Shown: piece by piece, positions 3,291 to 58,596 of the stretch | Numbering within the stretch: the first letter of the stretch is position 1 | How the letters are laid out: every line of letters starts with the position of its first letter | NCBI GenBank assembly: GCA_032718475.1 | Contig: JAUCBJ010000603.1 | Location: 1 to 64,000 of the forward strand | DNA: 64,000 nt | Direction: 5' to 3' | Source: Nemertoderma westbladi | Lineage: Eukaryota > Animalia > Xenacoelomorpha | Made by a program: the position numbers and the translations under genes | The notes under the pieces: generated by a model | Told to the model about the DNA's origin: nothing | Database searches by the model: none | Seen by the model: only the letters and a program-made list of their open reading frames with translations

Positions 3291-4931
3291 TTAGTCTTTC
3301 TTACGCGGACGGCGTTTACGCAGTTTTTTGACGCTAGCAAGAGTCCTTTTCTCTTTGGGGCGAGCCACTTTACTAGGAGGGCTGTAACTCCTGGGTGAAG
3401 GGTGCAATACAATTGCATCAGAAGGTTTAGGATTACGATCGGTGTATCCGCCGGTCGAGGTACCTGGTTGATCGATATCAACTTCAGTGGAGCGAGGTCT
3501 AACGGCCTTTAGGGCGCGTCTTAGGACAGCAGCTCCTACGGGTCCTTGACGGGTCGTCTGGACAATGGCGGTAGGTGGACCGTGAGTGGTGAGAAACTTC
3601 CTCGGTTTAATGGTTCTTTCCAGCTCGCGTTCTCGGGCTCGATATTCGTAGGGCCGTCGAGATACTTCCTGTAATTCAGGGTGCGAGTTGATAAATAAAT
3701 CGCCATACTCAGGGTCTTGACGGATGAAATTGATCAACTGATATGAAGTAATATCGTTAGGATTGACGTTCCTGAGATATTTTCGAACAAATTTGGTGGA
3801 AATACACTCACCAACACGCTTCATTAGTTCGTAACTCGGTGTGCGTGTTTTTTGTTCAACAGACGCGAATAAATAAGGATGGAACGCGTAAACTCCCTCG
3901 TAAGAGCGTCCAGGGTAATAGCGATGGCGGGACTCACAATGTAAATCCGCGTTCGCTTCCCAAGCTCGGATGTAGCGCAGGGTAATCATCTCATCTACGC
4001 TTTCTAAATCGCGGTTAAAGGGGCAATTATAACTGGCATGTCCTTTAAGTTGACAGTGGTGGCATTGAGTCATAAATTGGGGGCAGACTGCAAAAATGTG
4101 CGAGTTATTAAGTCTGCAATACGCACAATAGATCTCCATCATCAGTTGTTTGTGGAAATAGGAGCAGGGTATGTCTGAGTCGAACGAGCGTAGGTGATAC
4201 GTCAAACAAATTTCGCTCGAAACTCCCGTAAGTATAGCGAGTAAAACCGTGTTTAGTGCAACGTCTCCGCGGATGTTTAGGTCTTTCCGTTTGTTGGTTG
4301 GGTCTAGGGCACCCATCGCAATAATACCAAAGACGCACGTCTTGTAGGGGAAACGCGAGTGATCTCTCTCCAGTTCACAACACTCCCCCATCTGCTCGAA
4401 GCCATCCGGTACAACAGGTAGCGGTCGATCGGCGGTAAGATACATCATAGTGGAACAGAGCCGCTTGAGTTCCACCATGCGGTCATGATGTATACCTTGA
4501 GGATATCGAGTTTCTAGATTCTGTTGACTGGTAATATTGAGATATGTTTCTCTCAAGAATTCAAGATATTTGTTGAAGTCACTGCGTTTATCCGGCTCTT
4601 CAACATCTTCACTTTCGAGTCGGTTTCGAATAGAATTTTCGTGTTCGAGTCTCAGTTTATCGTTCCGCTTCCGCTGGGTATGATATTTAAATAAAACCAT
4701 TTCCCTTTCGGTGTCTATATCGTCCGTATCGTGTAGGTCGATAGGATGACCAGTAGTTAAGAAGTCCATATACGTACCATTACGATGCGTATAGCGAGCG
4801 GTGAATTTTCTATAGTCCAACTCAAGCGTGAGCTGCTCTTGGGACATTGGCGGTTTGATATAACGACCATCGTCCTCCGCAGCAGTTGGACCAGCATCGC
4901 CGCGTATTAAGCTATCAACAAACGCCTGCAA
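3291..4931 (-). CDS. Extra 3' ORF of element A: 546-aa tandem CCHC zinc-knuckle protein with a basic C-terminus, probably expressed by splicing
   Basis: Uninterrupted ORF containing CAYCRLNNSHIFAVC-PQFMTQ-CHHCQLKGHASYNC and ending KKLRKRRPRKKD. It starts at TTG inside an acceptor-like CTCTACTGTTGCAG|G (AG at 4927-4926). Confidence 0.8.
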   Translation of the reverse strand: MQAFVDSLIRGDAGPTAAEDDGRYIKPPMSQEQLTLELDYRKFTARYTHRNGTYMDFLTTGHPIDLHDTDDIDTEREMVLFKYHTQRKRNDKLRLEHENSIRNRLESEDVEEPDKRSDFNKYLEFLRETYLNITSQQNLETRYPQGIHHDRMVELKRLCSTMMYLTADRPLPVVPDGFEQMGECCELERDHSRFPYKTCVFGIIAMGALDPTNKRKDLNIRGDVALNTVLLAILTGVSSEICLTYHLRSFDSDIPCSYFHKQLMMEIYCAYCRLNNSHIFAVCPQFMTQCHHCQLKGHASYNCPFNRDLESVDEMITLRYIRAWEANADLHCESRHRYYPGRSYEGVYAFHPYLFASVEQKTRTPSYELMKRVGECISTKFVRKYLRNVNPNDITSYQLINFIRQDPEYGDLFINSHPELQEVSRRPYEYRARERELERTIKPRKFLTTHGPPTAIVQTTRQGPVGAAVLRRALKAVRPRSTEVDIDQPGTSTGGYTDRNPKPSDAIVLHPSPRSYSPPSKVARPKEKRTLASVKKLRKRRPRKKD

Positions 4932-27222: not shown

Positions 27223-27334
27223 TCTAAGTTTTATATTAAAAAGTTTTATTTATTTTCATAAAAGTTTAATTTATTTAAAATTTTGTAAAATCATTTAGCT
27301 AAAATTCAATATTATCAATTGACATTGCTATATA

Positions 27335-40209: not shown

Positions 40210-43200
40210 AAGTTCTCAATAGCTGGTAAAGAGTCTTCCCACTTCATCCACTTCTTTAACAGTTCTCCCTTAAGTGGATCATCCCAAGAGTGGTTTTCAA
40301 GCCTCATTTGTAGGACTAGACTCCGAGCAACTGGGATTACAGGACTAATAAATCCCAATGGATCGAAATACGTGCTCAGAATACTCAGGCAAATCCTCTT
40401 AGTTCAAACAGGATTATCGCGTTGTTTTAATTGGGAGAACAAAATATCCCTCTCTGTATCCCACTTTAATCTGAGGGTTTTAGTTTCTGGGAGGTCGTCT
40501 TTAATGAGGTCGAGATCTTTAGCACCTCGTCCTTCTTCTGGGATTGCCTCCAGAACCTCGCGGGAGTTGCTGGTGAATTTAGTTAACCGGAATCCACCGC
40601 GTTGAAGACACTTTACAGTTCCCTTGGCAACCTCGATGGCTTCTTCCACCGTAGGCAGGGATTTGAGGTTGTCGTCCATGTAGATGTCACATTTGATGTT
40701 ATTGATTACCGCTTTGGGGAAGGCATCTCGATTTTCATCAGCAGTGGTACACACTACCAAGCAAGTGTTAGATGGACTTGAGATAATGCCGAAGGAATAG
40801 TCATCCAGTACTCCACCGGTTCTTTGTCAAAGTCACTATAAGGCCACCATAAGAACCGTAAGCTATCTCGGTCTCGTTGGAATGCTTTCACCTGTAGAAA
40901 CATGCCTTCAATATCGGAGGCAAATGCGATGGAATACTGCCGGAGTCGTAGTAGTATTCCCAACAGCGATTGGAGTAAGTTAGGTTCTGGCAATAATTCT
41001 GAGTTCAGGGATTGTCCTTTATATAACGCAGAGCCGTCGAACACCACCCGGACTTTGTTGGGTTTACCGGGTTTGGGAACGTAGACGTGTATTAGATAAT
41101 ACATTCTCTCTGTTATGGGTGTTTCTATCAGAACTCGCTCTGCGTATCCCCTATCGATGAACTTCTTTAACTGTGTCTTGTACATTTCCTTAGCTTTATC
41201 ATTCGATGATAAGCATCGGTGCAGTTGTTCAATTCTTTTGATGGCCAATGGTCGGTTATTGATGAAGCTGGGTTCTCGCTTCAGGAAAGGTAAACCAATC
41301 TCGTAACGACCCTCCTCCTTGATGTAAAGAGTAGTCATTGCTTGGATTTGTTTAGCTTTCTCCTCCTCTACAGATAGGGCTCTATCGTAAGAGTTAGGTT
41401 CCACAGCCTCTTGGCTAAAGAATAGCACTGTGTGTTCTGTTCATCTCTCAGTTTAGAATTATATCTCTCCACTACCTTGTTTAGCTCGTCATCCTCGTAA
41501 GCCAACAGTTTGTTGTTCTGTTGCAATAAATTACACAGTTTGGTTTGGTTTGTCCAAGTTTGATTCACGGTGAGGGATTCAATCACATTGTCCTCATCGT
41601 AGAGTATTTGGATGTCGTCGTTATTCGAGGAGCATGGAGTTTCCTCACCTGAGATATTCTCGTCATTCACGGCTTCTATACTCTCACATACCTGGTTAAT
41701 GCGTTCATTCTCTCCTCTTTCTGGGAGAGTGCGTCCAGGTGGTCCCATGAAATACCAACCCACCCTAGTTCGTCCTGTGTAAGTTTGTAAAGGCTGCGGT
41801 CGAGTAGGTCGCTTTTCTAATGTTTCTAGCGCTTCATGTGAGTTCTGCTCAAGTAGCATCTGGACTCCAGGATAATCAGTCTTGAATCTGGGGACTCTGT
41901 ACCGTTGGACAAAGGTGTCCTCGTCCCAGTAATAAGGTTCTACCTGAGTAGCTGCAAAGTTCTTAATAACTACCAATTTTATACTCTCCTTACCAGATTT
42001 ATCCTGTGGGGTGGATAGTGATCTCATATAGAAGTCCGTCGATATTGTAGATTTCCATACCTGCATGATCCCGGAGAGGTTGAGTTTAGTTTGGAATTTC
42101 TCCTGACCTGCAAATATGTCCTCGGCTAAGTCCTTGTCAATAAAGGTACCTGTACTACCTGAATCAAGGAGGGTGTTAAATTAAACTCTTACCTTGTCCA
42201 TGTATACTGAGCTGCATCACTGGGAATTCTCTTATGCCACTAGATGGTTGCGAGACCTTCCACGAGAGATGTTTATCTGGAATGGATAGTTGGATTTCCT
42301 CTCTGTCTGTTGTCGCTTCATGGGTAAGGGCTCGATACACGATTGTGTTGATCATATAGCAGGATTCGTTTTCATTGGAAAACTCGTCCGTATAAAATCC
42401 TTCCATCTCCGATCTCTGGTCGGTGTCATTCACGTTGCCAAACTGGACATGCAACTCTGGTTCACTCACCTTATCGAACTCGCTATGTAATAACGAGTGA
42501 TGTTTAGCTCCATATTTAGCACACATAGCATCTGAATAGCAAGTCTTCCCTGGTGTCCTCTCCTCAGATAATTGTAACATAACCTCTTATCCCAAGTTAC
42601 ACTATGCCTGTCCCTGAGGTCTTTCTTCAAGAATTCTTCACACTTACTTAGATGATGGGGCCCTTCGCATGACACACACTTAGGCTTAAAGTTGGTTACC
42701 TTTGGTTGGACTGTGTTCTGCACACGAGTTCTTTCTTCGGGCTTCTTATTAGGAATCCTCTTAGGTGACGTTGCAGGAGTCTTACATTGTTCTATCAAAT
42801 TTACTATCATTCTGCCAAATCTTGGGTTTTCCCATGTCCTTACTGTGTAATAAAAATTGGCAGTGTCTGGTCCACTATCCTCATTATGTGAAGTTTGACT
42901 CTCATACTCAGTGTAACATACAGGAGTTACTCTTTTCCTAGCGACTGGTTTCTCGCTTACCTTAGTTTTCTCTCTAGACTGTTTAATTAACTGTATTCTT
43001 ACCTCTCCTGTTAGGAAGGACATAAAGGTCCGCCATTGTAGTATCTCTCCAATGCTGGTCCTCAAAGTATAACACCCTTTTGTCCCAACGAGTACCCACT
43101 CCGCCCTTTGGCAAAGATGCTGCTACAGCTCCTACTACCATAGAACTTTGGTACTCATGAGATTTACCTAACCAGTCTAACTGTCTACAGATCTCCTGAA

Positions 43201-43677
43201 CCTCATTGGAAAACTCTATGATTTCATTACTAGGGAATTATTATTATTACCATTACTAAAATTTAATTAACCTAGTAATCTAGTATGTAACCTAGTAATA
43301 AACCTAGTAATTATCATTACTAGGGCTACTAATTTCGCATACAAGTATCTAGCTATGTTAGTCCTATTACCACACCTGTTGTTTAGTGTATCCCAAACTT
43401 GTCTTAGTCCGTCAGTATGTCCGATGAACTTTAATGCCATCAATTTGCGGGGACCTTCCAAGCACTCGATGAGGAATCGTAACTTTTCTCTGTTTGATAA
43501 TACATAGTTTTGTATGTTGTCCTTATAAATATTCATTAAAAGGCAGCCACTTCAACTCATCTCAGTTAAACTTGATGACCTCTCCCATCGTTCTAGCCAT
43601 CTGACTCGTAAAACTCTCCTGAGCCATCGTATTATTCAATATCAAATTATCCGAATATACATTTCTAGGATTATTGT
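40210..43677 (-). pseudogene. gag-pol: B gag-pro-RT, frameshifted
   Basis: Fragments KVRVVFDGSA, SDIEGMFLQV, IYMDDNL, GGFRLTKFTSN; Gag and PR fragments closely similar to A. Confidence 0.92.
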
Positions 43678-44951
43678 TGTGATGGGATCAGTGGATCCCG
43701 ACCGGTATGTTGTTTATGTACGCGTCCCCGCCGTGTGAATGAAAAAGGGTTCGTTGTTGTTCCGATAATGTTGATGAATATAAAATATAGTATATAATGA
43801 GCAAACAGATAGCACAGTTGAAGTACAGAATGATCGGTAATATTGAATGTGATGGTGATGGCGATTACGGTAATAGAATGTTACCGTACTGCCCTAACTG
43901 ACTGAGCAACTGAGTAAACTGAATGTGTGATGAAACACCGACCGGTAATATACTACACTACATTGGCCTGTTACTTAGCTGATGCCTTCCTGTCCCCCCA
44001 TTGGTTGATAACCCAATTCTCGGCTCCCACCTCTGTGGGAGTGTTTCCCCCTGGCTACTGTTACTTTCTCTCTCCCGGAGGCTTAACCTCTGACCTCCAT
44101 TGTATACGGCCCTTTGGGGGTTCGTTGCCCCCGTTTATTGGGGGTGGTACGAGGTTGATTGGCAATCAACCTCGTGCTTCCCAATATTGCTTAAAGGCAC
44201 CGTCTCCCAACTTTATGGGGTGGTTAGCGGAATTGAATCCGCTACCACTCCCCCTCATGCTATCTTCCCGGTGAGAAGATAGCATCAACCTCTAGTGCGC
44301 TTCAATTCCGCTGGAACCTGATCTACTATCAGGTGTGGGGTGGAGTTATTTTCTTTTCAGAGCCGGCTTTCCAGGCCGCTCCCTATGGGTGTGATGTCGC
44401 TACCCCCTCTTGGTGCAATTTCGTCTACCTTGCACCAAGACATCTGACGTCCCGTGTTGGGCTGATTGTGGGTTTCTGTCACACAATTTTTGTTTCCCCA
44501 ACACTCCCTCCACTCTAACTCCACACTAACTAACTCTAACTTCTCCCCCACTCTAGCTCTCGGACCTTCTTCTCCCTCACTCTACCTCTCACTCCTCCCC
44601 CCCACACACTTGAATTGCACTCGCACTCTCTCCGCGCGTTCTATACTCGACCTTCACCCCCAACGCTCTCGCTCCTGACGGGCCTCACCCTCCCTTCCTG
44701 TGCCGTCGCACTCAAGAAGTGTGAAGTCGTCTAGTGTCCTGTTCCGCCATAGTCAATTGGTTCCCAGTCCCAGTAGATAATTGGAAAAGGTTATATGACT
44801 ATAGTACTTACTTTGATTATATTTGCTTATTTGACTATACTAATGATTATTACATACGTACATACTAATTGCACTTTTAATCAATTAAATTTTTGCACTT
44901 AGGAGTTCGTACTTCTCACGTGGTGCCTTCCAGGCATCCCACATCCAAGTT

Positions 44952-47560
44952 CTAGTTCGTCCCACCTGACTTTGGGAACCATCTCAACTCCTTCCCCCTG
45001 TCGTCCTCCTCCCTCGGTCGTTTCCTGGCCGCTGCCGCTCCCTTGGCCTTATCCCTATTTAAGTTTCTGACCCTCGCTGTTACCTCTCTACTTATTCCCG
45101 TCATCGACTCCTTGGGTGCTGGTGTTATCAGCTCCCGGTATCGCTTCGTGGGTTGCCCCATCGAATGGCCCTGTTGTCTCCCCCTAGTGGCATCCCATAG
45201 GATCACCTTCATCGCCCGCGGCACATGCACTGCCAAGAAATCTCTGAACTCTCCTCGGTTCTGTGGTGTCCACCTGTCCAAATACCTCTGCGTATTTATC
45301 ACCCCGGCATACGACGCCGCCGTTGACACATCCTGCTAGGTAAACGGAAGTCTCCGTCTAATAATCTCCAGGTGGGCCTCCTGGTTGACACCAAAGAAGC
45401 CCCACCGGAACTCCTGGGCCCCCACACGCCGCCGCGTCATGGCACCGACATCGGCCCATTCCTCGAAGATCCTAAACCTCTCCCCGTCGTCCATCCAGTC
45501 GCACTGGCATCCACAGTGCCCCCGGAAGTCGCACTTAGAACACCGGTTGTGCAACCGTGGACACGCCCCCATTCTGTGGCTTGACTCGCGGCGGCAGTAG
45601 AGACAACTAGTCCCTTTCTGGAATCGGTACAAACAGCTCCTTTCCTGGTGAGTTTGCCTCCCGCAGTAATCGCAGCCGAGCACCAATGTCTCCCGCCCCA
45701 CGTCGTCTTTCGTCCCAAGCAATCTCCTCGGTCCGTGGAGTCACTGGTAAGCGAACTTTTGGACGTTAGCATCCCTGTCCACGTCTATCTCCTCGCCCCT
45801 CCCGGGCATCGTCTCTCCGAATACTACTCGTGGTGCCGTTCCTGGTTGCTCGCCCAACCTGATGGTGCTCCCCGCAAAATCCATCGCCGGCTCCTCATGC
45901 ACCCAGCCCGCTTGCCGGATCTATCCCAGAAGGCTCTCGCCCCACTGGCCATCACCACCCTCCCGCCACCCCAGTCCGTGTCCGAGTGGCCGATCCTCCC
46001 GATGGGCGGCATCTCTCCGAACTTGTCGTCATCCTCGTCCTCCTCTGGGAGTGGTTCCAATCCTGGTATCCCGGTGGATCCACTGTGTCCCTTCCCACCT
46101 TGGCTCTCACCCGTGATCTTCCATCCTTCCAGCTCCCCCGGTCTCCTCTGCGCGAAATCGCCCTCTGCGCCCGCTGGTATGGGTGTCGCCTACAATCCCG
46201 ACTGTTTCGGTGACCCTACCGTCCACCCCAACTCTCGCCCTAGAGACTCGCCCGAACTCCCTGATGATGTTCAACGAAGTTCATCTAAGGCCGCCTGTTC
46301 CTCGAACCCGTAGATCTCTGCTCTGGCCGCCTCCTCCCTTTCTTCTGCCTCTCTCCTTTCTTGTCTAGCGATTTCTTCCAATCGCTTCGCTTCTCGTCTA
46401 TCCACCTCTAGCTGCTCCCACCTCTGATATGGCGTATCCACATCCCTGTCTACTAGATGTCGGCAGTTATAATACACCGACTCGCCCTTCAGCCCCGGGT
46501 GGTCTACCAGACCCTCGAAAGCCACTCTGAAGGCTCTTCTGTAGTTCAGGGGTGATCCCGATAGCAAGAATGCTGTTGGTTCTCTCTCGATAACCACGGT
46601 GATGAATAGGTTTAGCAAACCTATCATTATCCAGTCCTCCTGCAGGATATATCGCTTCTTATATACCTTTATTGCTCCTCTCCGGAATTGATACACCTCT
46701 TGCTTCCCCGGCCTTGCTTCCCACTTCAGCAAGTTTGCCAACTCCGCTCCGTACTCCTCCCTGAATTTACCCCAGTCCATTGGTTTGTGGCATATGAGCC
46801 CCATTAGCTGGCCCATTGCCACCGCTCCACAATGGCCGGCATTCTCCACTAGTCCCAACCCGTCTGGCGCTGTCATAGCCATGTAGACCATTTGCGTATC
46901 CAGGAGGTTGGAGGTCTCCGGAGCGATGATCCTCTCCGCATTGTCGCGGATCGCCGATCCCACCTTTATCGTCGACTTCTCCCTTACTAGACTCTGCACC
47001 GCTTTTGGCAGCCGGTTCAATTTTGGCCCGTTCTTCTTCCCATACGTTCCTAGGTCGAATAGGAATATATCCCCATTTGGCGCGGCCAAATGCAGGAGTA
47101 TGGTTCTGGCCGACCCCGCCGACCCTCTTCTCGAACCTTCCTCGTCTTCCACGGTCCCTTCATCGTCTAGGACCATGTACCCTCCCCTGCTGACGGACTC
47201 TACGAACCTCTTCCAATCCTTTCTCGGTGGCTCCTTTGCATACTTCGGTATCCCGAACTTCGCCTCGTCTCCTTTCACCATGTAGTGGAAATGCTCGAAG
47301 ATTGCATTGTCTAGCAACGGTGTCCCGTAGGTCCCGAGAGGTCGCTGTTTGTGCACCTCCCTGAAATGGTCCTGCAGCGCTCGCGCTTTGTGACCCCTCT
47401 CTAACCGCTCGTAGTATCCCCTCGTCTTCTCTTCCGGATGCCTCTCGGTGAAGTCCACCAGTATCTCCTTTCCTCCTAACTCCGCCTTTCTCTTTCTGAC
47501 CAGTCTCTCCGCCATCTCGAACTCTCCCGATCGCTCACCTATAAGGTGGGGCCTTGCCAA
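44952..47560 (-). pseudogene. Extra 3' ORF of C (~870 codons, several stops and a frameshift): DEDDy 3'-5' exonuclease-like domain, acidic linker, three CCHC knuckles and a basic tail
   Basis: 46271-47560: VLDDEG...LLHLAAPNGDIFLFDL...LPKAVQSLVREKSTIKVGSAIRDN...LLDTQ...YILQED. 45336-45722: three knuckles. 44952-45329 is in the same frame as the knuckles after one stop. Confidence 0.75.
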
Positions 47561-48024
47561 GGCACAATATAAATGAGTGATGCAGTTAGGATGGTCTGTG
47601 CAGTTCGATAATGGCCTATCTCACACTATATGTTAGGTTATCGCCTAATTTTCCTACCCTAATTTCCTAAAGTGCCAAATTCTACCAAATTTCGTAATTC
47701 TGTCCGTTACTTAAAATATGTTCTGGAATATTTTTCCCTACTGTTACCATAATTTGTCTAATTTTCTAATTTTATTTATTTTAATATTTAATTTAATCCT
47801 ACTATTGTGCTATCAGTATCTGCCAATGGATTATTCTATTTATAATCCACATTCTGGCCTACTCTGTGGGATGGTGCAGTACAACAGTATGTGTTGCGTG
47901 GCCTACACGATTTATCCAGCTGTACCCACATGCCCCCCTCTCGCTACTCATTACTAACTCTACTAACTTTCCAGCTAATTTCTGCTGACTCTTACTATAT
48001 ACTATATTATACATATCCTCCTAC

Positions 48025-48730
48025 CACTAACTCTTACTGGTAACGGTACTATACGTACCCTCCTACTAACTTCTCTACTAACTCCTACTACCGGTACTAC
48101 GTACCCTCTTACTAACTAGCTCTACAACTAACTCTTACTAACCGGTACTACGTACCCTCTTTCTAACTAGCTCTACAACTAACTCTTACTAACCGGTACT
48201 ACGTACCCTCTTACTAACTAACTAACTCCAACTAACTCTTACTAACTGGTACTACGTACCCTCTTACTAACTTCTAACTCCACTAACTCTTACTAACCGG
48301 TACTACATACCCTCTTACTAACTAACTAACTCCAACTAACGGTACTACGTACCCTCTTACTAACTTCTAACTCCACTAACTCTTACTAACCGGTACTACT
48401 TACCCTCTTACTAACTAACTAACTCCAACTAACGGTACTACGTACCCTCCTACTAACTAACTAACTCCAACTAACGGCACTATGTACCCTCTTACTAACT
48501 TCTAACTCCACTAACTCTTACTAACCGGTACTACGTACCCTCTTACTAACTAACTAACTCCAACTAACGGTACTACGTACCCACTTACTAACTTCTAATT
48601 CTTACTGACTTCTATCTGCCTACTTACTTACTGTGTACTTACTATGTACTACTTTCCTTTCTCTTTCTCTCTTTCTGACTAACTCCAACTAACGGTACTA
48701 CGTACCCTCTTACTAACTTCTAACTCCTAT
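48025..48730. repeat. Minisatellite (ACTAAC-CGGTACTACGTACCCTCTT, ~40-48 bp) between pol and the extra ORF of C
   Basis: Visible tandem array. Confidence 0.92.
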
Positions 48731-48840
48731 CTTTCCACCTATCCGGTCTTCTACCGATCGGACTCTTCTGTCTTCATCGGAGTAAGTGCCCACAACTCTC
48801 GCCAATCTCCATTGGTTGTTGATGATGGTATCGTCCGTGA

Positions 48841-51800
48841 TCACCCTCTGATCACCAGATCACCCTCTTTCAACTCCCTATTTGTATTTCTCCACTTGCT
48901 CCTCCTATGAAGCGTGGGTAGATATTCCTCGACCCACCTCCTCCAGTACTCCGCGCTTATCGCCTTAGCGACTTTCCAACTCTGTCGGGAGTCTATATTG
49001 TCTGGGTCTACACCCCGCATGTCGATTGTCGCCGGCCTCTCCATTAGAAAGTGACTGGGCGTCAGCACATCTAATGATTCTGGGTCATCATTTTCTGGAT
49101 ATAGCGGTCTGCTATTAATGATACCCTCGCACTTTGCTAGTACCGTCCTTAGTACGTCCTCTGTTACCATGTGGGTGTTCATCAACTTCGTCATCAGACG
49201 TTTGGAACTGCCCACGAGTCTCTCGACGCATCCTAGAGTATGCGGAGCATACGGCGTCCTCCTGTCCCACTTCACCTGTCGTCTTCTCATGGCTGCCCTG
49301 ACTTCCTCCCCTTCCAGGATGTCCAAGGCCTCTGCCATCTTGTTCTCCGCCCCCACAAAGTTGGTTCCGTTATCCGAGTATAATACTGCGATTGTCCCAC
49401 CTTTGCGGTTTCTGAACCTCTCTAGGGCATTGATGAATGCCGATGCGGTTGCGTCTTGGGCGTGTTCTATCCCTACCGCCCGCGTGTTATTACATACGAA
49501 GATAATGCCGTAGCGCTTCTCCGTGTGCCGCATCACCTTAATCTTTATCGGCCCGAACATATCTACACCGCAGTGTGTGAATGGCGGGTCATGCTGTCTT
49601 ACTCTATTGGCCGGTAGTGGCGCCATCTCCTGTATGGCTGGCTCCTTCTTCATCCTCCGGCAGGTCTGGCACTGCCCCACTACCGCCTTTACCTTCTTCC
49701 TTAACTGTTTGACCCAAAAGGTCCTCCGTATCTCCGTGAGGGTTCGGTTGGTGCCCCCATGCAGTATCGACTTGTGGGAGTCCCAGATGATCTGGTGCAC
49801 TATCGGCGATCTATTGGGGATGATGATTGGTTTTGGTGGAATGATGATGCTGTTATTGTTGAGCACCCTGGAGTTCTTTATTAAAATCCCATCGTCATTG
49901 AGTTGTTGCAACAGCGCGATCAGCTCGCTGTCCCGTCGGAGATGCTGTTGTTTACTGATGCGTTCCACCTCATCGCCGTAGTTTTTTCTTTGTTCGTAGT
50001 GGATGACGGCCTTGGCCGCCCCCTCCAGATCGACGTTTGGTTTCTTCTTGATGTCTTGGCCAACCCCCTTTAGGAAGTTCCCGAAGACTCTCCAGTACGC
50101 CACTAACTTCTTGGTCTTGTACCAACTTGAGCTGTAGCTGAGGAGTTTGTCCGTCGGGTTATCGCATAGTTCTTCCAGTTTTGGTTGCACGTCCCTTATC
50201 TCCCTCACCATCTGGCTATATATCTCCTCGCCTTCTGAGTCTCCTCCCTCCTCCTCTAGTGCTACTTCCTCTGAGCCCGGGTCCTCCTTCTTCATCGGTG
50301 GCCAGGCTCTCCTGTCGTTCAGGAATTGTGGCCCGTGCTGCCACAATACTTCCTTCTTCAAGAAAGTGTGGCGTGCCACGCCCCTCGATAACAAGTCCGC
50401 TGGGTTCTCGTCCGTTGGGCAGTAGTGCCACCTTTCCAACTCCGTCATCGCTCTTATTTCGTCCACCCTATTTGCGGCGAATATAGGGTATCTCGTCCTT
50501 TCATTGTGTAGCCAACCAAGCACTACCATGGAGTCCGTCCAGTAGTGTGTTTCCACTATGTTGGGAATGGTATCCATCAGATAGGCTGTGGCTCTTACTC
50601 CTAATCTCGCAGCTGTCAACTCGAGTTTCGGGACTGATGCTGAATCCGGTGGCGTTGACTTCGCTTTGCTGAATGCGAGTCTGGGCTTATGAGCCCCCTC
50701 TTGTTGTACTAGGTAGAGTGCCGCTCCGTATGCCTCCAATGATGCATCGGAGAACATGTGTAGGTCCAGATTCGTCATGTCCCCATCCGGGAAATACACG
50801 CGTGGCATGCTGTATATCCCCATCTGTTCTAAACTCTCTGTCCACTTGCACCACTGCTTGCTGATCTCTTCCGGTACTTCTGTATCCCACTCGTCCTTTA
50901 GTTTGTATACTTTCTTAAGTATCTGTTTCCCCGTGACTAATAATGGGGATGCTAGGCCTAGGGGATCATATATCCTCGCTATGTATGACACATAGCCCCT
51001 CTTTGTGTGGATGTCTGCGCCCTCCTGGCTCAATTGGTACTTCAATTCGTCTGTCTCTCGGTTCCACACGATCCCTAGTGCCTTCTGTTGGGACTCTATC
51101 CTCTTGTTCGCCATGTCCTGTCCCTTGGCTGTCGTGGGATTATCCATGGTCGCTTCTGGCCTCCTGTCCTCTATGGCTTTGATAAATTCTTCCGAACTGG
51201 ATTGGAACTTGGTCAGGTTGAACCCGGATCCTTTTAGGATGTCGCGAACCTCGCGCCCCGTATCCAGTAGTTCTTTAACCGTATTTCCAGACTCCATTCC
51301 GTCATCTACATAGAAGCCGCGTCGAATCATATCGACGGCTTTAGCGCTGTATCTCTCCTCTTTACCCTCTACTGTGTTTCTTACAGCCACAGTCGTCGTG
51401 AATGAGGACGACTTGGCACCCATATTCTGCACCACCATCTTGTACATCGGTATTGTCAACGGTTCCTCGTCGCCGTTGTACCATAGGAAGCGCTGACTGT
51501 CGCTATCCTCTTCCGTTACACGGACTTGGTTGAACATGCCTTCGATGTCGCAAGTGAAGGCGTGCTTCCCGTTTCTGAATCTGAGTAAGACCTCGATCCC
51601 TGAGTAATAGATGTTGGGACCCTCCAACAGATAATCGTTTAGGCATTTGCCGTTGGTTTTAGCCGATGCGTCAACTACCATCCGCAGTTTACCTTTCTTC
51701 GGATCTAGAGCCACGTGAAGTGGCAGGTAATAGGTCCTGTCCGTGTTCGGTTCATCGACCGGTAACTCCACGGCCCATCCTTTCTCAACATACTTCCTAA

Positions 51801-53946
51801 TTGTCTTATGAATGTACTCATTCTTTTCGAGGCTCCGCTTTAGCGTTTGCTTCAACTTACGAAGCCTCGTGAGTACCATTCCTTTATTGTCGGGTAGCGG
51901 TAGCTTCGGTAGTTTCCATACCATCCCTATGGTATACCGCCCCTCATCGCATGTCATCGATTCCTTTACGCTTTGTAAAGCCTGCTTATCCTCCACCGAG
52001 GTTCCGACCTCGGTCTCTTTCAATCCCTCAAAATCTTGTCTAAGCAGTCTCCTGAGCTGCTCCTCCACTCCTTCGTCTTCCATCTCCCGCATAGTTCCTG
52101 CGAACATGCACCCTGATGTCTCCGACATCCTAAACGGTATTTTGCTTCTAATTGGGCCGCTCAGCGTCCACCCAAATGGTGTCAAGATCGCCACCGGGTC
52201 ACACTGCCTGTCTTCGCCGAAGACCGTTTGCATTCTCTCGTGGGCCGTCGGGCAGTCCATTCCTACTATAATGGATACCTTCCTAACGTCCACCTCTGGG
52301 ATTGAGAAGTCGATACAGTCCAGGAATTTATATTGTTCGACCTCGATGTTGGTTGGTCGCCTGGCGTTGATATTTATCGACTCTATCACCTGGATGGGGT
52401 TGATCGTCGTCCCATAATCGCATCCCGGTGCTATCGCTGCTATCCCGCACCATCCAGTCCTCATCTCCAGGACCTCATCTTTGCTGGAGATGGTTGTCAC
52501 TGCCATCCTACTTGGCCTCGTCCTCAATCCTATTTCTTCGGCCACCCAATTCTCGACCAACGTGAAGGCTGCTCCACTGTCGACCAGCATCAGCGTGGTT
52601 ACTGATCGATCGCCTTCCCCAATCACCCGCACTGGTACTACCCCGAGTAGTGCCATTCCTCTCTTCTTTGCTCCTACGGTGCTTGTTGCCATCGTCTGTC
52701 CTCTGGCTTGACCAAACTTAATTGGCGTCTCCTTGCATTGGTTGGCTCGATGTCCACCCGTCACACATCGAGAACAAACTTCGTTCCTCCTCGCATATTC
52801 TGTCTGATCTTCTCTGGGTAGTGCTTGCCAATATCTGCAATTCATCGTCTGATGAAGTGCGTTCGTGTGCAATTGGCACTTATTGTTTGGGTTGTAGCCA
52901 TCCTTGTATAGTGCGCTATGTATCGCACTTGCATTCGTACCTAGGACCCTACTGTTCTTATTACTTGGGTTCGGCCTACCGGGCGTGTTAGGGTTATGTT
53001 TATTTGTGTTGTTATTTTTCCCTTGTCCGCTCCATGGTGCAGCCTTACCCCCGGCTATATGTGGACTAGCAGTCCGCTGCGTCGCTGCGTATGGCAGCGA
53101 TTGTCTGAGCTTTGGCAATGCATTCGCCGTGTTGTGTTCTGGTTTCGGCCTATGGTATTCGGTCTTTGGTCCCTTTCCCAGGCTATCCTCGCTATAGATT
53201 GGGTCTGTTATGAGTTCGGCTTCGTAGTTAAGGAAGCTCGACATTTCTTCTAGACCCGGTTCCGCACCCTTCCTATCTCGAGTGGAGAAAGCGATTTTTC
53301 TCCACTTATTGCGCAGCCAAATCGGTAGTGCCTGCGCTATCGTGGTGATGTTATTAGATGCGTTGAGTTCGTATGGCGCATCCAGCATCTTTAACACGAT
53401 TAGCGCTTTCTCGACTTTATTCGCAAATGTCTTTATGCTAATGGGATTATCCTGTAGGCCACCCGATGTTATACCTCTCAGGGTCTGCCGGATGATCTTG
53501 GCCGGGTGCCCGTACTCCCTGTCTAGTGCCCGCCATGCTGTCGTGAAGCCACCCTCGATGCCCTGGTGCTGCCTCACGATGTCGTATGCTGGGCCTCCTG
53601 TATACACCTGTAAATATTTTAGGCACTCCGCCTGCGTCAAGTTCTTTGTTAATATTTCATTGCTATACATGTGCCGAAACTGCAGGTATTCTTCCGGCCT
53701 ACTTCCATCGAATTTAAATGGTTCTATGGGTGGTAACTCGATCATGGTTTTTAATGCATCGATCAATGTAGCCATTCCCATCGCTTGTGCTTCCAATGGG
53801 TTCGATGGATGTTGTATAGATTCTCCTGTTGGGTGCGGTCCGCCCATCCTATCTGCTGTCTTTCTTTGCGTCGGATATATCATAGGGGGTAGCGGCCCCC
53901 TCCATATTTCGGTGTCGCATGATCTGCTCTCGTCCAGGGGGTTCAA
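48841..53946 (-). CDS. gag-pol: BEL/Pao Gag-PR-RT-RNase H-integrase polyprotein (C-terminal tip frameshifted, continuing to ~48745)
   Basis: KFDGSRPEEY, LVDSGA, CDIEGMFNQV, YVDD, LHMFSDAS, WTDS, NPADLLSRG, H-H-C-C motif, GVDMFGP / SDNG / VER, RSKW. Confidence 0.95.
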   Translation of the reverse strand: MNPLDESRSCDTEIWRGPLPPMIYPTQRKTADRMGGPHPTGESIQHPSNPLEAQAMGMATLIDALKTMIELPPIEPFKFDGSRPEEYLQFRHMYSNEILTKNLTQAECLKYLQVYTGGPAYDIVRQHQGIEGGFTTAWRALDREYGHPAKIIRQTLRGITSGGLQDNPISIKTFANKVEKALIVLKMLDAPYELNASNNITTIAQALPIWLRNKWRKIAFSTRDRKGAEPGLEEMSSFLNYEAELITDPIYSEDSLGKGPKTEYHRPKPEHNTANALPKLRQSLPYAATQRTASPHIAGGKAAPWSGQGKNNNTNKHNPNTPGRPNPSNKNSRVLGTNASAIHSALYKDGYNPNNKCQLHTNALHQTMNCRYWQALPREDQTEYARRNEVCSRCVTGGHRANQCKETPIKFGQARGQTMATSTVGAKKRGMALLGVVPVRVIGEGDRSVTTLMLVDSGAAFTLVENWVAEEIGLRTRPSRMAVTTISSKDEVLEMRTGWCGIAAIAPGCDYGTTINPIQVIESININARRPTNIEVEQYKFLDCIDFSIPEVDVRKVSIIVGMDCPTAHERMQTVFGEDRQCDPVAILTPFGWTLSGPIRSKIPFRMSETSGCMFAGTMREMEDEGVEEQLRRLLRQDFEGLKETEVGTSVEDKQALQSVKESMTCDEGRYTIGMVWKLPKLPLPDNKGMVLTRLRKLKQTLKRSLEKNEYIHKTIRKYVEKGWAVELPVDEPNTDRTYYLPLHVALDPKKGKLRMVVDASAKTNGKCLNDYLLEGPNIYYSGIEVLLRFRNGKHAFTCDIEGMFNQVRVTEEDSDSQRFLWYNGDEEPLTIPMYKMVVQNMGAKSSSFTTTVAVRNTVEGKEERYSAKAVDMIRRGFYVDDGMESGNTVKELLDTGREVRDILKGSGFNLTKFQSSSEEFIKAIEDRRPEATMDNPTTAKGQDMANKRIESQQKALGIVWNRETDELKYQLSQEGADIHTKRGYVSYIARIYDPLGLASPLLVTGKQILKKVYKLKDEWDTEVPEEISKQWCKWTESLEQMGIYSMPRVYFPDGDMTNLDLHMFSDASLEAYGAALYLVQQEGAHKPRLAFSKAKSTPPDSASVPKLELTAARLGVRATAYLMDTIPNIVETHYWTDSMVVLGWLHNERTRYPIFAANRVDEIRAMTELERWHYCPTDENPADLLSRGVARHTFLKKEVLWQHGPQFLNDRRAWPPMKKEDPGSEEVALEEEGGDSEGEEIYSQMVREIRDVQPKLEELCDNPTDKLLSYSSSWYKTKKLVAYWRVFGNFLKGVGQDIKKKPNVDLEGAAKAVIHYEQRKNYGDEVERISKQQHLRRDSELIALLQQLNDDGILIKNSRVLNNNSIIIPPKPIIIPNRSPIVHQIIWDSHKSILHGGTNRTLTEIRRTFWVKQLRKKVKAVVGQCQTCRRMKKEPAIQEMAPLPANRVRQHDPPFTHCGVDMFGPIKIKVMRHTEKRYGIIFVCNNTRAVGIEHAQDATASAFINALERFRNRKGGTIAVLYSDNGTNFVGAENKMAEALDILEGEEVRAAMRRRQVKWDRRTPYAPHTLGCVERLVGSSKRLMTKLMNTHMVTEDVLRTVLAKCEGIINSRPLYPENDDPESLDVLTPSHFLMERPATIDMRGVDPDNIDSRQSWKVAKAISAEYWRRWVEEYLPTLHRRSKWRNTNRELKEGDLVIRG

Positions 53947-56877
53947 TGTTCTTGTTCCTATTGGAGTATATTGTTGATATTGCGATGGGGGAATGTCACC
54001 CTGTCCCCCCCCCCACCGGTGTATTTGATACTGGGGTTGATGTTAATATATTGGGGGCCATGCACCTATCCGCAATAACTCTTCCCTCCCCTGGATATAT
54101 GTTATGCCCTTGCATGCTGTAGTCATACTGCTGTGCTGGTACCGGTATAGGCCTATCCACTTCTGGCCTACCTACCGGTATATACTCCGCGACTTCCGGG
54201 TTTAATCCCGCCATCCGTGCTACCCTATCACCTACGTTATCTCTTCCAGCATGGCCTATAGTATGTGCAGTAAGGCCTACAGTATGTCCTGCAATCTGTA
54301 TGTGTCACTCGGGATCGAAGTTTAACCTTCTCGAATAATCCTCCCCGGAGCTACCGTATTCTCGATCAGCAGGTATATCCCGTCGGGAAGTTTCTCTTCG
54401 ATCCCCTCTACTGCTCTCGTCCTCGTACCGGTACACCCTGTACCCCTCTCTTGGCGTGTAGTACGCCTCGTCAGGTCGCATCTCCCCGGGACGACGGCAA
54501 TCTCCCAGAGTTCGACCCCACTGACTCTCCGTCTCCATCTCTACTACCGACAGCTCGCTATCCGTCCTCGCTCTCCTGTCGTTCGCGACGACACTTCTTC
54601 TACTCTCTTCCCTTCTTCTCTCTGCAGTACAGTATCCCCGCTTGTGAGATCTCTCGTCGACCTCCCGGTTAAACTCCACTGTTCTTCTTCCCTCTTCTGA
54701 TTGGGCTCGATGTCTCGTCGCTCGCCCTCTCGCGACGTCAACCTGTCTCTCTCTGCTCGATCGCACGCCGCTGGGGATACTCGTAATCCCCCTACTATTC
54801 TCCATCGCCGGGTGCTGCGGTTCACCTAATTCGCCCCGCGCATTATCCGCCGACGCCTGTGGGGTACTCCCTGCCCCCCCCCCCTCTCGCCGCTAATCCC
54901 TCATTGTGGGGCTCCTGCAGCCCCCCCCCCCCCCCACTCGCCACCTATCACTTCTCTATCTCTTACTTCACTTCTACGCCCCTCTCTAGTCGACGCACTA
55001 ACTCTACCGCGACTGGGTCTATTCACCCCCGCCTCTCCCTCTGTCACTGTGTTGCCTGGTAGGCTCCCGTCGGGTTGACTCAACCCCGCTACTCCCTGCG
55101 CACTAACTACGTGGCCTACCAGGCCCCTGTCGGGCTCTCTCACCCCTGCCACCTCCTGCCTACTGATTACGTGGCCTACCAGGCTCTCATTGGGGTTTCT
55201 CACCCCCGTTACTCCCTGCCTACTGACTACGTGGCCTACCAGGCTCTCATTGGGGTTTCTCACCCCCGTTACTCCCTGCCTACTGACTACGTGGCCTACC
55301 AGGCTCTCATTTGCCGGGCCACCTGCGTCCGCCACGTTTATATTAATCTTCTATATCTTCTTTATCTAATATTCTTATCTTCTAAATCAATTAAATTATT
55401 TTGCACACCTAAATTAGAAACGAGATTATTTTGGTCGTTTGAATTAAGATTGTTATTTGAATTATTTTGCGTAATTATATTATTTGAATTATTTTGTATA
55501 TTCGGATTTAAATTATTATTTAAATTATTCGAATTATTTTGTAAATTTATATTAGGGTCGTTCGGATTTAAATTACTACCATCGGGCAAAATATTATTTC
55601 CTGCAATGAAAGTTTGGTTAGGATTATCCACTACGGTACTATTAATATTAACGTCCTCTGCTGTATTATTATTATTACCCCCCCCCCCCCCCCCCCGCCC
55701 GTACGGTCACACCAGTCTTGGGTCTGTCATCCGGTCCCTGTAAGTGGGATATTGATAAATGTTTCCATAACTTCTGGCTCCTCGTAAACACTACCCGAGC
55801 CAGCCTCGCTCTCTGACAATCCCATCTGCGCCAGTTCCAGTCGGCGCTTCTGTTTGGCCTGATATTGCATAAGCCCCCTTAGCCGGGCATGCATATCATC
55901 CCGCACACGTTTTCCCGCTCTCTCCCTCTCCCTATCCTCTCGTAAACTCTGATAGGCTAACTCTGCCTCTCTCGCAATCCTCTCAAGCCGTCTTGCCTCA
56001 CGCTCTTTTCGCTCACCCTCTTCTCTCGCCTCCCTCGCCGCCTTGCGCTCTTTATGTTCACTCTGCTCTCTTGCCTCACTCGCCTCCCTCGCCGCCTCAC
56101 GCTCTTTACGTTCACTCTGCTCTCTCGCCTCACTCGCCTCCCTCGCCGCCTCACGCTCCTCTCGCTCCTTCCTTTCCCTCGTTTCTATCTCCTCACACTC
56201 CCTAAAATTTCTCGCGACCCTCTCGGCTCGGCCTTCTCTTTGTTCTCTCTAGCCAGTTCTCTCTCCCTTTCCAATAACGCAGTTCCCTCCTCCAACTCCC
56301 TCTCCAACTCCTTTTGGTCTAACGCCACTATATCGAGCTGGCACGCCAGATCGATTTCTAACACCCTTCTTACTTTTGCAGAGGATGTAGCAGACTTGTC
56401 GGTTGCGACGGACTCCCGTCGCCTCCCCGTCCTACTAACTTTCCCCCTCTTTCTGGGGTTCTCAGCGACCGACGAGACCGAATCCTCGGGGTTAACCTCA
56501 GATTCTCGCTCGTGCGGTCCCGCCCAACCCACTAACTTAATTCCCCTGGCATCCACTAAGTATGGCCCTATGTACACTACACCAGGCTCCATACCCCTAG
56601 ACTGCCACAACTCGAACAGTTCGGTGGCGACCCCTCTCGCTCTTTCACCCGCCAACTCTCCTTGCCCAAAGCGAACTAGATAGTTAAAATGTTTGTTCGA
56701 CTCACCTAGTCGCTGATCTAGTTTCACCTGGTCTAGTTTTGCTCCCTCTTTAGCTTCCTTCATCTGCTTCCTCGTCGCGTTGTAGGCCCGTCGGAGCCGG
56801 TCGCTAACTCCGACGTCCTCGTCGCCGACATCCCCTCTTTCTCTCCATGTTCGGCGTCGTACCGGCGGCCCCACCAT
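53947..56877 (-). pseudogene. Long low-complexity/coiled-coil N-terminal Gag extension of C, broken by frameshifts
   Basis: Consecutive ORF pieces (56185-56877, 55362-55631, 54901-55335, 54305-54805, 53996-54214); several breaks lie near C homopolymers; 60-bp and 48-bp coding repeats. Confidence 0.65.
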
Positions 56878-57303
56878 CGCCGTTCCGGTAGGCCGTCCGT
56901 CGCCCTCGGCCTGTGGCTGGCCGGCGACATTGGTACATCGTACGCCCTCGTGCGTCGACTCTTCCTCCCTCTCTGGTAGATGGCCGCCCTCCGCCTGGGC
57001 TATCGGGTCATTCGTGGTCGACGATCCCGGCGTCGTGGGTCGATACCGTCGCGTCGCGGCCTCGCAGATCGTTTAGTCCGTATCGTCCGGGGTCCGTGGC
57101 GGTGTCGTTTCTCCTTCTTGGCTCATCTTTTATCGGTGGCTGGCAGTCACAGTTTTGATAGTAGGGTGGATGGGTAATTCTATTACTGTGACGGGATCAG
57201 TGGATCCCAACCGGTATGTGGTTTATGTACGCGTCCCCGCCGTGTGAATGAAAAAGGGTTTGTTGTTGTTCCGATAATGTTGATGAATATAAAATATAGT
57301 ATA

Positions 57304-57568
57304 CTAGCAGGCAATACCCGAGGCATGTTACCCAGTATTTCCCGCTACCAGCATATGCCTACTGGAGTACTGATACCGGTATAGGCCTACTGACGTACCG
57401 GTACCCAGTACTGGTACCGAACGTGAATTATACTTTTCGAAGAGTGGCCTATAACGACCGCTGGTTAAAGTTATACACACATGCCAAGTCCCAGCGCAAT
57501 CCTTCTGCCCGTTTTGGAGGAGTTCGAACACAGAGAGAGAGAGAGAATTTGATTTTTATAGGTATAGA
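57304..57568 (-). mobile_element. Non-autonomous Helitron-like element (265 bp) in the 5' LTR of C
   Basis: Minus strand runs 5'-TC...CTAG-3', inserted between A and T with no TSD. Removing it exactly restores TATAGTATATAATGAGC, as seen in the other LTR. Confidence 0.88.
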
Positions 57569-58026
57569 TAATGAGCAAACAGATAGCACAGTTGAAGTAC
57601 AGAATGATCGGTAATATTGAATGTGATGGTGATGGCGGTTATGGTAATAGAATGTTACCGTACTGCCCTAACTGACTGAGCAACTGAGTAAACTGAATGT
57701 GTGATGAAACACCGACCGGTAATATACTACACTACATTGGCCTGTTACTTAGCTGATGCCTTCCTGTCCCCCCATTGGTTGATAACCCAATTCTCGGCTC
57801 CCACCTCTGTGGGAGTGTTTCCCCCTGGTTACTGTTACTTTCTCTCTCCCGGAGGCTTAACCTCTGACCTCCATTGTATACGGCCGTTTGGGGGTTCGTT
57901 GCCCCCGTTTATTGGGGGTGGTACGAGGTTGATTGGCAATCAACCTCGTGCTTCCCAATATTGCTCAAAGGCGCCGTCTCCCAACTTTATGGGGTGGTTA
58001 GCGGAATTGAATCCGCTAACAATTGT

Positions 58027-58596
58027 TTTTTTATATTTACTACTTTATCTTCCAAACCCTCAACTGGTCCACGGACCTGGATATATTTTGGGCCAACTGC
58101 CTGAGCAGCTTGCCCATCTCCCACCGCCCTTGCTCCATCCACTCAACCGCTGGTGTGGGAGATGCCAACGGAGTGGCTGGACGGCCCATCGGGCGATGGG
58201 GGACGACCCTTGCCCGAATGATTTATATTCATCGGGCTTACCGCCAACCTGTGATTCAGGGATTTGGCTACTGGTGAAGGGAGTATTTGTACTTCCTAAA
58301 GGAAATCTAGAATCGGGTTCGAACAGTAAGGGAGCCTCCACTAATGGGGTAGACCACCTAGTTATCTCAGGCTCGTCTAGAATAGTGGGAAGCCTATCAG
58401 ATTCGAATACTTGGGTGATTAACTCGGCAGATTTTAAATCTGTGCTCGCCAGTTCTCTTCTCACCGGAGGGGGCAAGTTGGGCAACTTGCGTCCTATGGG
58501 AGCTTGTCTACATCCATTTGAGGTGGATTTGTAACTCCTACATTCTGATTCTGTCGTCGTACCTTCATCTGAGGTGGTAATATTTGACTGAGAAGG
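58027..58596 (-). pseudogene. gag: B gag N-terminal fragment
   Basis: LPPPVRRELASTDL...DRLPTILDEPEI matches A Gag LPPTVRKQLASTDL...DRLPTIVDEPEI. Confidence 0.85.

What the first reader, a model, noticed from the sequence alone, without database searches (positions are those of the whole stretch)
44952..47560. BEL/Pao retrotransposon carrying a WRN/EXD/Mut-7-type DEDDy exonuclease fused to zinc knuckles
The motif order matches the WRN-exo/EXD/Mut-7/Nibbler fold: ExoI VLDDE, LLHLA..., IFLFDL, LPKAVQSLV..., KVGSAIRDN (consensus KVGxxIxxD, here N at the ExoII Asp), LLDTQ, and ExoIII-like YILQED (seen; domain call by eye). Host members trim small-RNA 3' ends in piRNA/siRNA pathways (Nibbler, Mut-7; EXD1 is a catalytically inactive piRNA factor) (established). 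Hypotheses: a counter-defence nuclease or decoy against piRNA silencing; the enzyme that trims a self-primer, given the missing tRNA PBS; or a proofreading aid for RT. Element A keeps only the knuckle module, implying a modular accessory gene. Together with the self-complementary PBS, this is the best candidate for an undescribed system in the window.
Basis: partly seen in the sequence, partly recalled or inferred. Interest (0 to 1): 0.88.

Follow-up and report, generated by a model that had tools for sequence, protein, structure and literature searches.

The report
BEL/Pao retrotransposon with extra exonuclease gene
A repeated jumping gene (a BEL/Pao retrotransposon) in an animal genome carries an extra gene, broken in this copy, that likely encodes an RNA-trimming enzyme joined to RNA-gripping zinc knuckles, a cargo already described in another retrotransposon group but not found in print for this one, and it may help the element prepare the primer for copying itself.

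Summary
A full-length BEL/Pao element (43678-58021, minus strand) has a third ORF after pol (47515-44952, about 853 codons, five breaks in this copy). Its first half likely has the DEDDy (RNase D/WRN-like) exonuclease fold: no library or homologue search finds it, but a mixed DEDDy profile aligns ExoI and ExoII in register (1 of 2000 shuffles as good; five narrower profiles not significant). Contigs of other copies cover the domain in four runs, carry Asp at the ExoII place where this copy has Asn, and lack the first stop, so it is not a one-off capture. Three CCHC knuckles follow; fusion is likely but three of five breaks could not be checked. ExoIII has Glu for Asp, and the WRN/EXD/Mut-7 subfamily is unresolved. 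The idea is not new: DEDDy ORF3s are published for bdelloid rotifer LTR elements (PMC5408684), exonuclease plus zinc fingers for trypanosome RNase D (PMC7797062). New here: the BEL/Pao host, the knuckle fusion, and a non-tRNA primer site complementary to the element's own LTR. Function is untested; self-primer trimming is my narrow favourite over piRNA counter-defence. The scan's notes hold no earlier sighting. New variant of a known kind; interest 0.5.

The parts
57187..58021 (-). 5' LTR of the BEL/Pao element (835 bp, TG..CA); TATA-like box at 57726 and initiator-like TCAGT 32 bases on (57694), by eye
57644..57653 (-). 10 bases in the LTR exactly complementary to the first 10 bases behind the 5' LTR; would be bases 42-51 of the predicted transcript; candidate self-primer
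   Evidence: duplex-energy test not significant
57173..57186 (-). primer binding site position; does not begin with the TGG expected for a tRNA primer
   Evidence: TGG rule from general knowledge
48841..54042 (-). uninterrupted gag-pol ORF, 1733 aa (DUF1759, protease, RT, Peptidase_A17/RNase H, integrase, DUF5641)
47520..47600 (-). possible splice acceptor region (CTAAC, pyrimidine run, AG) just before the ORF3 start; by eye, untested
   Evidence: sequence printed
44952..47515 (-). ORF3, about 853 codons when read with X at five breaks: stops at 46271-3, 46190-2, 45741-3, 45336-8 and a frame switch near 45905
46553..47239 (-). likely DEDDy exonuclease domain: ExoI D117/E119 (47167-47159), ExoII place 192 (46942-46940; Asn here, Asp in other copies), W-x-A-R-P (46723-46709), ExoIII-like Y289..E293/D294 (46651-46634); numbering from the Met at 47515
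46290..46430 (-). charged, coiled-coil-like stretch after the exonuclease domain (by eye)
45501..45674 (-). three zinc knuckles (C-x2-C-x4-H-x4-C, C-x2-C-x5-H-x4-C, C-x2-C-x4-H-x4-C), followed by a short motif shared with element A
   Evidence: Pfam zf-CCHC_4 only E 0.065
44248..44290 (-). polypurine tract next to the 3' LTR, preceded by a 13-pair hairpin (-18.7 kcal/mol)
43678..44247 (-). 3' LTR (570 bp; 265-bp internal deletion against the 5' LTR; 11 mismatches in 570 aligned bases); target duplication at 43673-43677 and 58022-58026
3291..4847 (-). extra ORF of element A (518 aa, uninterrupted): shares the knuckle module (4127-3921) but has no exonuclease signal

Best explanation
This is an accessory third gene of a multi-copy BEL/Pao retrotransposon family, broken in this copy, that likely encodes a DEDDy-type 3'-to-5' exonuclease likely joined to three RNA-binding zinc knuckles, and whose predicted job is to trim single-stranded RNA 3' ends back to a paired stem during the element's own replication, most plausibly to finish a self-primer. 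Steps: (1) shown: ORF position, motifs, knuckles, presence in many other copies; (2) inferred, about 0.88: DEDDy fold; (3) inferred, about 0.75: one fused protein in uninterrupted copies, probably made from a spliced sub-genomic RNA; (4) inferred, about 0.6: catalytically active, with Glu standing in at ExoIII; (5) hypothesis: the knuckles hold the protein on the element's RNA, the 5' leader pairs with the non-tRNA primer site as in Tf1, the leader is cut somewhere downstream, and the exonuclease chews the overhang back to the duplex to give reverse transcriptase a paired 3' OH.
For: Fold: hhalign against 25 bacterial PF01612 proteins puts ExoI, the two strands, ExoII and the L-D-T-Q stretch in register (P 0.0028); a 46-sequence mixed profile scores the ORF above 500 of 500 shuffles in hmmsearch, above 600 of 600 shuffles, 400 of 400 block shuffles and 195 of 195 real-protein decoys, and 1 of 2000 fresh shuffles reached it. 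Two predictions of the alignment are met by other copies: the ExoII place is an Asp codon in about 99% and 98% of depth (37 and 55 contigs) and the place three residues before the ExoIII Tyr is the Gln of the family motif in 100% of depth (17 and 40 contigs). By eye the ORF matches EXD2 and WRN chains printed (LLQMASPSG / LPRTLLDILADGTILKVG / EDASKLL against LLHLAAPNG / LPKAVQSLVREKSTIKVG / DNAERII). Family-wide: 2355 and 3782 contig pieces lie on 45300-47250, most 90-95% alike, all 30 bins covered; a third study's run covers three ORF3 stretches at about 81-88% identity. 21 of 40 listed majority differences are synonymous against 34% expected for transitions (p 0.013). Fusion: the first stop is absent from 100% of depth in other copies; loose ends and a joint fall at 45904-45907 where the frame switches. 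Function by analogy: zinc fingers raise RNA binding and trimming by trypanosome RNase D (PMC7797062, section read); 3'-end processing is the role proposed for bdelloid DEDDy ORF3s (PMC5408684). Self-priming: no tRNA-type start, exact 10-base complement in the LTR (11 of 3000); element A shows an 8-base complement 29 bases behind a TATA box; self-priming is known for Tf1-like elements (PMC4600332 passages).
Against: No hit in Pfam, NCBIfam, PHROGs, PDB sequences, two word-based searches or 1.84 billion representatives. Five of six profiles are not significant (149, 1211, 604, 121 and 382 of 2000 shuffles); hhalign probabilities are low (10.8%; 7.4% and 0.2%). The profile does not place ExoIII; by eye it needs about 34 inserted residues and has Glu where all 26 reference rows have Asp. 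Single-sequence folding failed (pLDDT 32). Within the exonuclease region only 4 of 11 listed differences are synonymous (p 0.52). Three of five breaks are not among the 40 of 86 rows shown, two differences (45951, 45969) fit the knuckle frame better than the exonuclease frame so the switch point is not fixed, and no contig spans exonuclease and knuckles. The primer duplex is not significant by energy (p 0.09 for this element, 0.19 for A) and A's 8-mer alone is not significant (324 of 3000). Tf1 self-primes without any such exonuclease (recalled), element A has similar geometry without one, and an ORF3 product need not be packaged.
Confidence: 0.36

Rival explanations
1. Counter-defence nuclease: the protein is an active exonuclease that, guided by its knuckles, over-trims or destroys small silencing RNAs (piRNA precursors, siRNAs) or their target fragments, weakening silencing of the element.
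For: Architecture equals that of trypanosome RNase D, which depletes small guide RNAs (PMC7797062 abstract and one section); host DEDDy proteins Nibbler/Mut-7 act on small RNAs (general knowledge; mentioned in PMC5408684); a separate ORF3 can act in trans; the family is abundant; the same cargo sits in unrelated retroelement classes in rotifers, which suits a role independent of the priming mode.
Against: Mature piRNAs are 2'-O-methylated at the 3' end (PMC11599104 passage), which hinders 3' trimming (inference); no expression or small-RNA data were examined; closeness to Nibbler/Mut-7 is not shown.
Confidence: 0.28
2. Catalytically dead RNA-binding adaptor: like Egalitarian or EXD1 the domain keeps the fold but binds RNA, for packaging, transport to the oocyte or as a decoy for small-RNA factors.
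For: ExoIII acid is Glu, with insertions before it; the alignment-guided model ranks Egalitarian first in Foldseek although no such protein was in the alignment; element A keeps the knuckles without the exonuclease, so RNA binding is the shared core; inactive DEDD derivatives act in piRNA biology (PMC5408684).
Against: ExoI Asp and Glu are present and ExoII is Asp in other copies; dead domains usually lose these. Foldseek and VIA ranks are near ties on a guided model.
Confidence: 0.2
3. The DEDD resemblance is chance; ORF3 is an orphan accessory protein whose only recognisable part is the knuckle module.
For: All library and homologue searches blank; five of six profiles at chance; MAFFT places conserved residues in register as often for shuffled sequence (99 of 268 reach the observed 5 of 13).
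Against: Best profile p about 0.001, about 0.006 after six profiles; correct motif order; two family residues fit the motif better than this copy does.
Confidence: 0.11
4. Proofreader or cDNA end-processor: a DNA exonuclease that removes mispaired bases for reverse transcriptase or tidies cDNA ends before integration.
For: DEDDy enzymes include WRN and polymerase proofreading domains (PMC5408684).
Against: Not fused to pol; the PolA-exonuclease profile scores at chance (604 of 2000); knuckles point to RNA; copies are diverse.
Confidence: 0.05

Closest known systems
DEDDy-exonuclease ORF3 of bdelloid rotifer LTR retrotransposons Juno and Vesta, shared with Athena/Terminon elements (Rodriguez, Kenefick, Arkhipova 2017, PMC5408684; passages and part 2 of 5 of the text read)
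   Same: Enzyme-derived ORF3 downstream of pol in place of env; DEDDy fold detectable only by sensitive profile comparison; a non-canonical acidic set (DEED there); same proposed roles; activity unproven.
   Different: Host element here is BEL/Pao (Juno and Vesta are Ty3/gypsy-like, from recall; they carry dUTPase and GPY/F motifs per the text); three CCHC knuckles and a coiled-coil-like linker follow the domain (the paper notes only a Cys-His-Cys motif in two ORFs and no coiled coil); the variant acid is at ExoIII.
Trypanosoma brucei RNase D, TbRND (Gao et al. 2020, PMC7797062; abstract and one results section read; PDB 7c42, 7c45)
   Same: DEDDy exonuclease with a C-terminal cluster of zinc fingers that boosts RNA binding and trimming; among the top structural neighbours of the guided model.
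   Different: Cellular enzyme acting on guide-RNA tails, four fingers directly behind the domain; here three knuckles about 300 residues away; no sequence similarity detected.
WRN exonuclease, EXD2, Nibbler/Mut-7, EXD1, Egalitarian (PF01612 relatives)
   Same: Motif order and several motif words; fold of the guided model.
   Different: ExoIII Y-x3-E rather than Y-x3-D; longer ExoII-ExoIII spacing; WRN-like profile at chance; no subfamily can be chosen.
Self-priming LTR retrotransposons Tf1/Tj1 (PMC4600332, passages read)
   Same: Primer site complementary to a stretch near the predicted 5' end of the element's RNA instead of a tRNA.
   Different: Those are not BEL/Pao and carry no exonuclease ORF (recall); here the complement would lie at bases 42-51, not at the very start; evidence is sequence only and mixed.

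Membership tests
BEL/Pao LTR retrotransposon | gag-pol with DUF1759, protease, RT, Peptidase_A17/RNase H, integrase, DUF5641 | tested here: met
BEL/Pao LTR retrotransposon | paired TG..CA LTRs, 5-bp target duplication, polypurine tract | tested here: met
BEL/Pao LTR retrotransposon | tRNA primer binding site (usual, PMC11599104 passage) | tested here: not met
   no TGG start behind the 5' LTR; not compared with the host's tRNAs
DEDDy exonuclease (PF01612 group) | score over the Pfam cut-off | tested here: not met
DEDDy exonuclease (PF01612 group) | remote profile match with motifs in order | tested here: met
   (1 of 6 profiles significant; ExoI to ExoII only)
DEDDy exonuclease (PF01612 group) | ExoI D-x-E | tested here: met
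   D117, E119 aligned
DEDDy exonuclease (PF01612 group) | ExoII Asp | tested here: met
   Asn in this copy; Asp codon in about 99% and 98% of depth of other copies
DEDDy exonuclease (PF01612 group) | ExoIII Y-x3-D | tested here: inconclusive
   Y-x3-E with Asp one further, after insertions; not placed by the profile; no majority difference listed there among 40 of 86 rows
DEDDy exonuclease (PF01612 group) | RNase H-like fold from independent structure prediction | tested here: inconclusive
   single sequence failed; model guided by a DEDDy alignment has pLDDT 67 and matches DEDDy folds at Z 10-12, rmsd 3.1-4.0, 152-180 aligned, which is circular
DEDDy exonuclease (PF01612 group) | metal-dependent 3'-5' nuclease activity | not testable with these tools
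   needs an assay
WRN/EXD2/Mut-7 subfamily | closer to WRN-like than to other DEDDy groups | tested here: inconclusive
   by-eye likeness to EXD2 but WRN-like bacterial profile at chance and structural ties; no eukaryotic sequences were available for a profile or tree
Bdelloid retroelement DEDDy ORF pool | groups with Juno/Vesta/Athena ORFs in a tree | not testable with these tools
   sequences not obtainable; no relatives found
Bdelloid retroelement DEDDy ORF pool | separate ORF3 downstream of pol, no membrane anchor | tested here: met
   highest 19-residue hydropathy 1.59, on the ExoIII helix
Self-priming (Tf1-type) elements | primer site complementary to the 5' part of the transcript | tested here: inconclusive
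   exact 10-mer, 11 of 3000; energy p 0.09; start site only predicted

The most novel reading that the evidence does not exclude
A lineage of self-priming BEL/Pao elements that has dropped tRNA priming and captured its own knuckle-guided exonuclease to finish the primer (or to blunt piRNA silencing): a second, independent acquisition of a DEDDy nuclease by LTR retrotransposons, with an ExoIII Glu variant and no detectable relative among 1.84 billion proteins.
Probability: 0.25. Interest if true: 0.8.

Novelty: new variant of a known kind. Interest (0 to 1): 0.5.

Why it matters
The function of enzyme-derived ORF3s in LTR retrotransposons has been open since the rotifer report. A second case in another superfamily, in an abundant family with the ExoI and ExoII acids kept and RNA-binding knuckles attached, suggests repeated selection for a 3' trimming function rather than a rotifer oddity. 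The link to a non-tRNA primer site gives a sharp test (co-occurrence across families; the 5' end of strong-stop cDNA). If it instead acts on small RNAs it would be a rare transposon-encoded enzyme against piRNA silencing.

Tried and rejected
No whole genome is held, so copies could be seen only as short contigs of public runs. No relatives of the exonuclease part: word searches near and longer lengths, 1.84 billion representatives, phage and plasmid records (one E 6 match, ignored), metagenome and viral contigs, 201 bacterial genomes (six of ten loci looked at showed nothing exonuclease-like). No relatives of element A's knuckle region or of pol in viral and metagenome contigs. The protein Atlas gave no answer. 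No RNA holder listed, so expression is unexamined. Single-sequence folding was useless. The alignment-guided model and its three fold searches are circular and were not counted as evidence for the fold. MAFFT's lining up of invariant residues was rejected as evidence after a shuffle control (99 of 268 as good). The four DnaQ-like rows L171-L174 were left out of the profiles; the mixed profile used 11 of 41 NrnC-like, 9 RNase D, 10 PolA and 16 WRN-like sequences. Summed contig depth was not used as copy number. The short local hairpin at the primer site was rejected as too weak. CpG decay as cause of the stops: no CpG depletion in the element. Papers PMC7998251 and PMC7738191 (term searches) held nothing relevant. 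Look-ups in the scan's notes by sequence and words were blank.

Full report
Setting. The window is animal DNA rich in satellites and nested LTR elements (an unchecked note on the same genome, e1-10418371, says the same). The finding lies in a full-length BEL/Pao element on the minus strand: 5' LTR 58021-57187, 3' LTR 44247-43678, a 5-bp target duplication, 11 mismatches in 570 aligned LTR bases, and an uninterrupted 1733-aa gag-pol with Peptidase_A17, DUF1759 and DUF5641. After pol and a C/T-rich array comes ORF3, from the Met at 47515 to 44952, about 853 codons when read with X at four stops and one frame switch.

Observation. Three CCHC-type knuckles lie at residues 614-671. Element A's extra ORF aligns with ORF3 only over the knuckle module (score 98; best of 300 shuffles 75; rest of the protein at background) and shows no exonuclease signal.

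Is it a DEDDy domain? Standard routes say nothing: Pfam, NCBIfam, PHROGs, PDB sequences, word-based searches and phmmer over 1.84 billion proteins are blank, and folding without an alignment failed. I therefore fetched bacterial PF01612 proteins and built six profiles. hhalign against 25 of them aligns ExoI, the following strands, ExoII and L-D-T-Q in register (P 0.0028, probability 10.8%). A mixed profile of 46 sequences gives the ORF 3.8 bits, above 500 of 500 shuffles; aligned over the whole profile it scores -15.9 against -38 +/- 5, above all 600 shuffles, 400 block shuffles and 195 real-protein decoys, and 1 of 2000 fresh shuffles reached it. The five narrower profiles, including the WRN-like one, are at or near chance (121 to 1211 of 2000), so the corrected p is about 0.006. 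The profile does not place ExoIII; MAFFT does, with insertions, giving W-x-A-R-P then Y-I-L-Q-E-D-W against Y-A-A-T-D-A-W, but MAFFT does as well on shuffled sequence, so this placement is by eye. Independent support comes from other copies: at the ExoII place, where this copy has Asn, the Asp codon makes up 15,507 of 15,628 and 14,391 of 14,641 of depth in two runs, and three residues before the ExoIII Tyr other copies have the Gln typical of the motif (100% of depth). With about 86 majority differences in 1951 bases, neither was likely by chance (inference). I put the fold at about 0.88. A model guided by a DEDDy alignment reaches pLDDT 67 and matches RNase D, Nibbler, WRN, EXD1 and Egalitarian about equally; it is circular for the fold and shows that the subfamily is open.

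One-off or family trait? All 30 bins of the element are covered in four runs from at most three studies; 2355 and 3782 contig pieces lie on the ORF3 stretch, mostly 90-95% alike; a diverged run covers three ORF3 stretches at about 81-88%, with 6 of 9 listed differences at 46660-46766 in third codon positions (counted by hand). Of the 40 rows shown (of 86), 21 are synonymous (p 0.013), but only 4 of 11 within the exonuclease region. No contig joins ORF3 to pol or exonuclease to knuckles; linkage is seen only in this copy.

Fusion. The stop at 46271-3 is absent from all listed depth of other copies; loose ends and a joint fall at 45904-45907; differences at 45771-45876 sit in third positions of the knuckle frame and those at 46064-46283 in third positions of the exonuclease frame. 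Two differences (45951, 45969) fit the knuckle frame better, and the other three stops are not among the rows shown. Fusion is likely (about 0.75), not shown.

Priming. The bases behind the 5' LTR do not start with TGG; the first ten are exactly complementary to 57653-57644 in the LTR (11 of 3000 resampled LTRs; extendable by four pairs across a two-base bulge), 42 bases behind a TATA-plus-initiator pair read by eye. By duplex energy the match is not significant (p 0.09). Element A has an 8-base complement 29 bases behind a TATA box, not significant by length alone (324 of 3000). Self-priming is thus plausible, not shown.

Mechanism. DEDDy enzymes trim 3' ends of structured RNA or single-stranded DNA (PMC5408684), and zinc fingers raise binding and trimming in trypanosome RNase D (PMC7797062). 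I favour, narrowly (0.36), a knuckle-guided trimmer acting on the element's own RNA, finishing a self-primer; rivals are counter-defence against small RNAs (0.28), a dead RNA-binding adaptor of the Egalitarian/EXD1 kind (0.2), chance resemblance (0.11) and proofreading (0.05). Shown: position, motifs, knuckles, presence in other copies, the ExoII residue of other copies. Inferred: fold, fusion, activity, splicing. Untested: every function.

Known and new. DEDDy ORF3s in LTR retrotransposons are published for bdelloid rotifers, with the same hypotheses (PMC5408684: passages and part 2 of 5 read; restated in PMC5718144, PMC6431247 and PMC6338049, passages). Six searches of the open-access library listed no report for BEL/Pao; I saw listings only, and subscription journals, repeat databases and supplements were not searched, so a Repbase-type annotation may exist. 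PMC4600332, PMC3601003 and PMC11599104 were seen as passages. The scan's notes hold no earlier sighting.

Noticed in passing
window 61503-62540 (-): Uninterrupted 345-codon frame with a signal-peptide-like start and a weak Pfam ETX_MTX2 match (E 0.063); looks like a host aerolysin-type pore-forming gene.
   Followed up: no
window 2022-15142 (-), element A: BEL/Pao-like element with 99% identical 1192-bp LTRs; its long ORF has gag and protease matches but no RT or integrase match; extra ORF intact; an 8-base complement of its primer site lies 29 bases behind a TATA box.
   Followed up: partly
window 33078-40209 (+), element B: Ty3/gypsy element with gag and pol in one frame split by stops and an ordinary TGG-type primer site read on the minus strand side of the LTR at 33494; orientation of LTR features not worked out.
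   Followed up: no
window 41612-43674 and 58063-58599: The studied element sits inside an older, broken relative of element A (68-78% DNA identity); a nest of at least three elements.
   Followed up: partly
window 44260-44290: A 13-pair hairpin directly before the polypurine tract of the studied element; role unknown.
   Followed up: no
window 54042-57100 (-): About 3 kb ahead of gag-pol hold several broken frames rich in charged, coiled-coil-like sequence and 60-bp repeats; possibly a long gag extension or another accessory ORF; no Pfam match over cut-off.
   Followed up: no
window 1-1190: End of another A-like element in opposite orientation (72% identity to A's LTR).
   Followed up: no
window 1100-2020, 15143-30000, 47950-48730: Tandem arrays (31-bp and 22-bp satellites; a C/T-rich array between pol and ORF3).
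   Followed up: no
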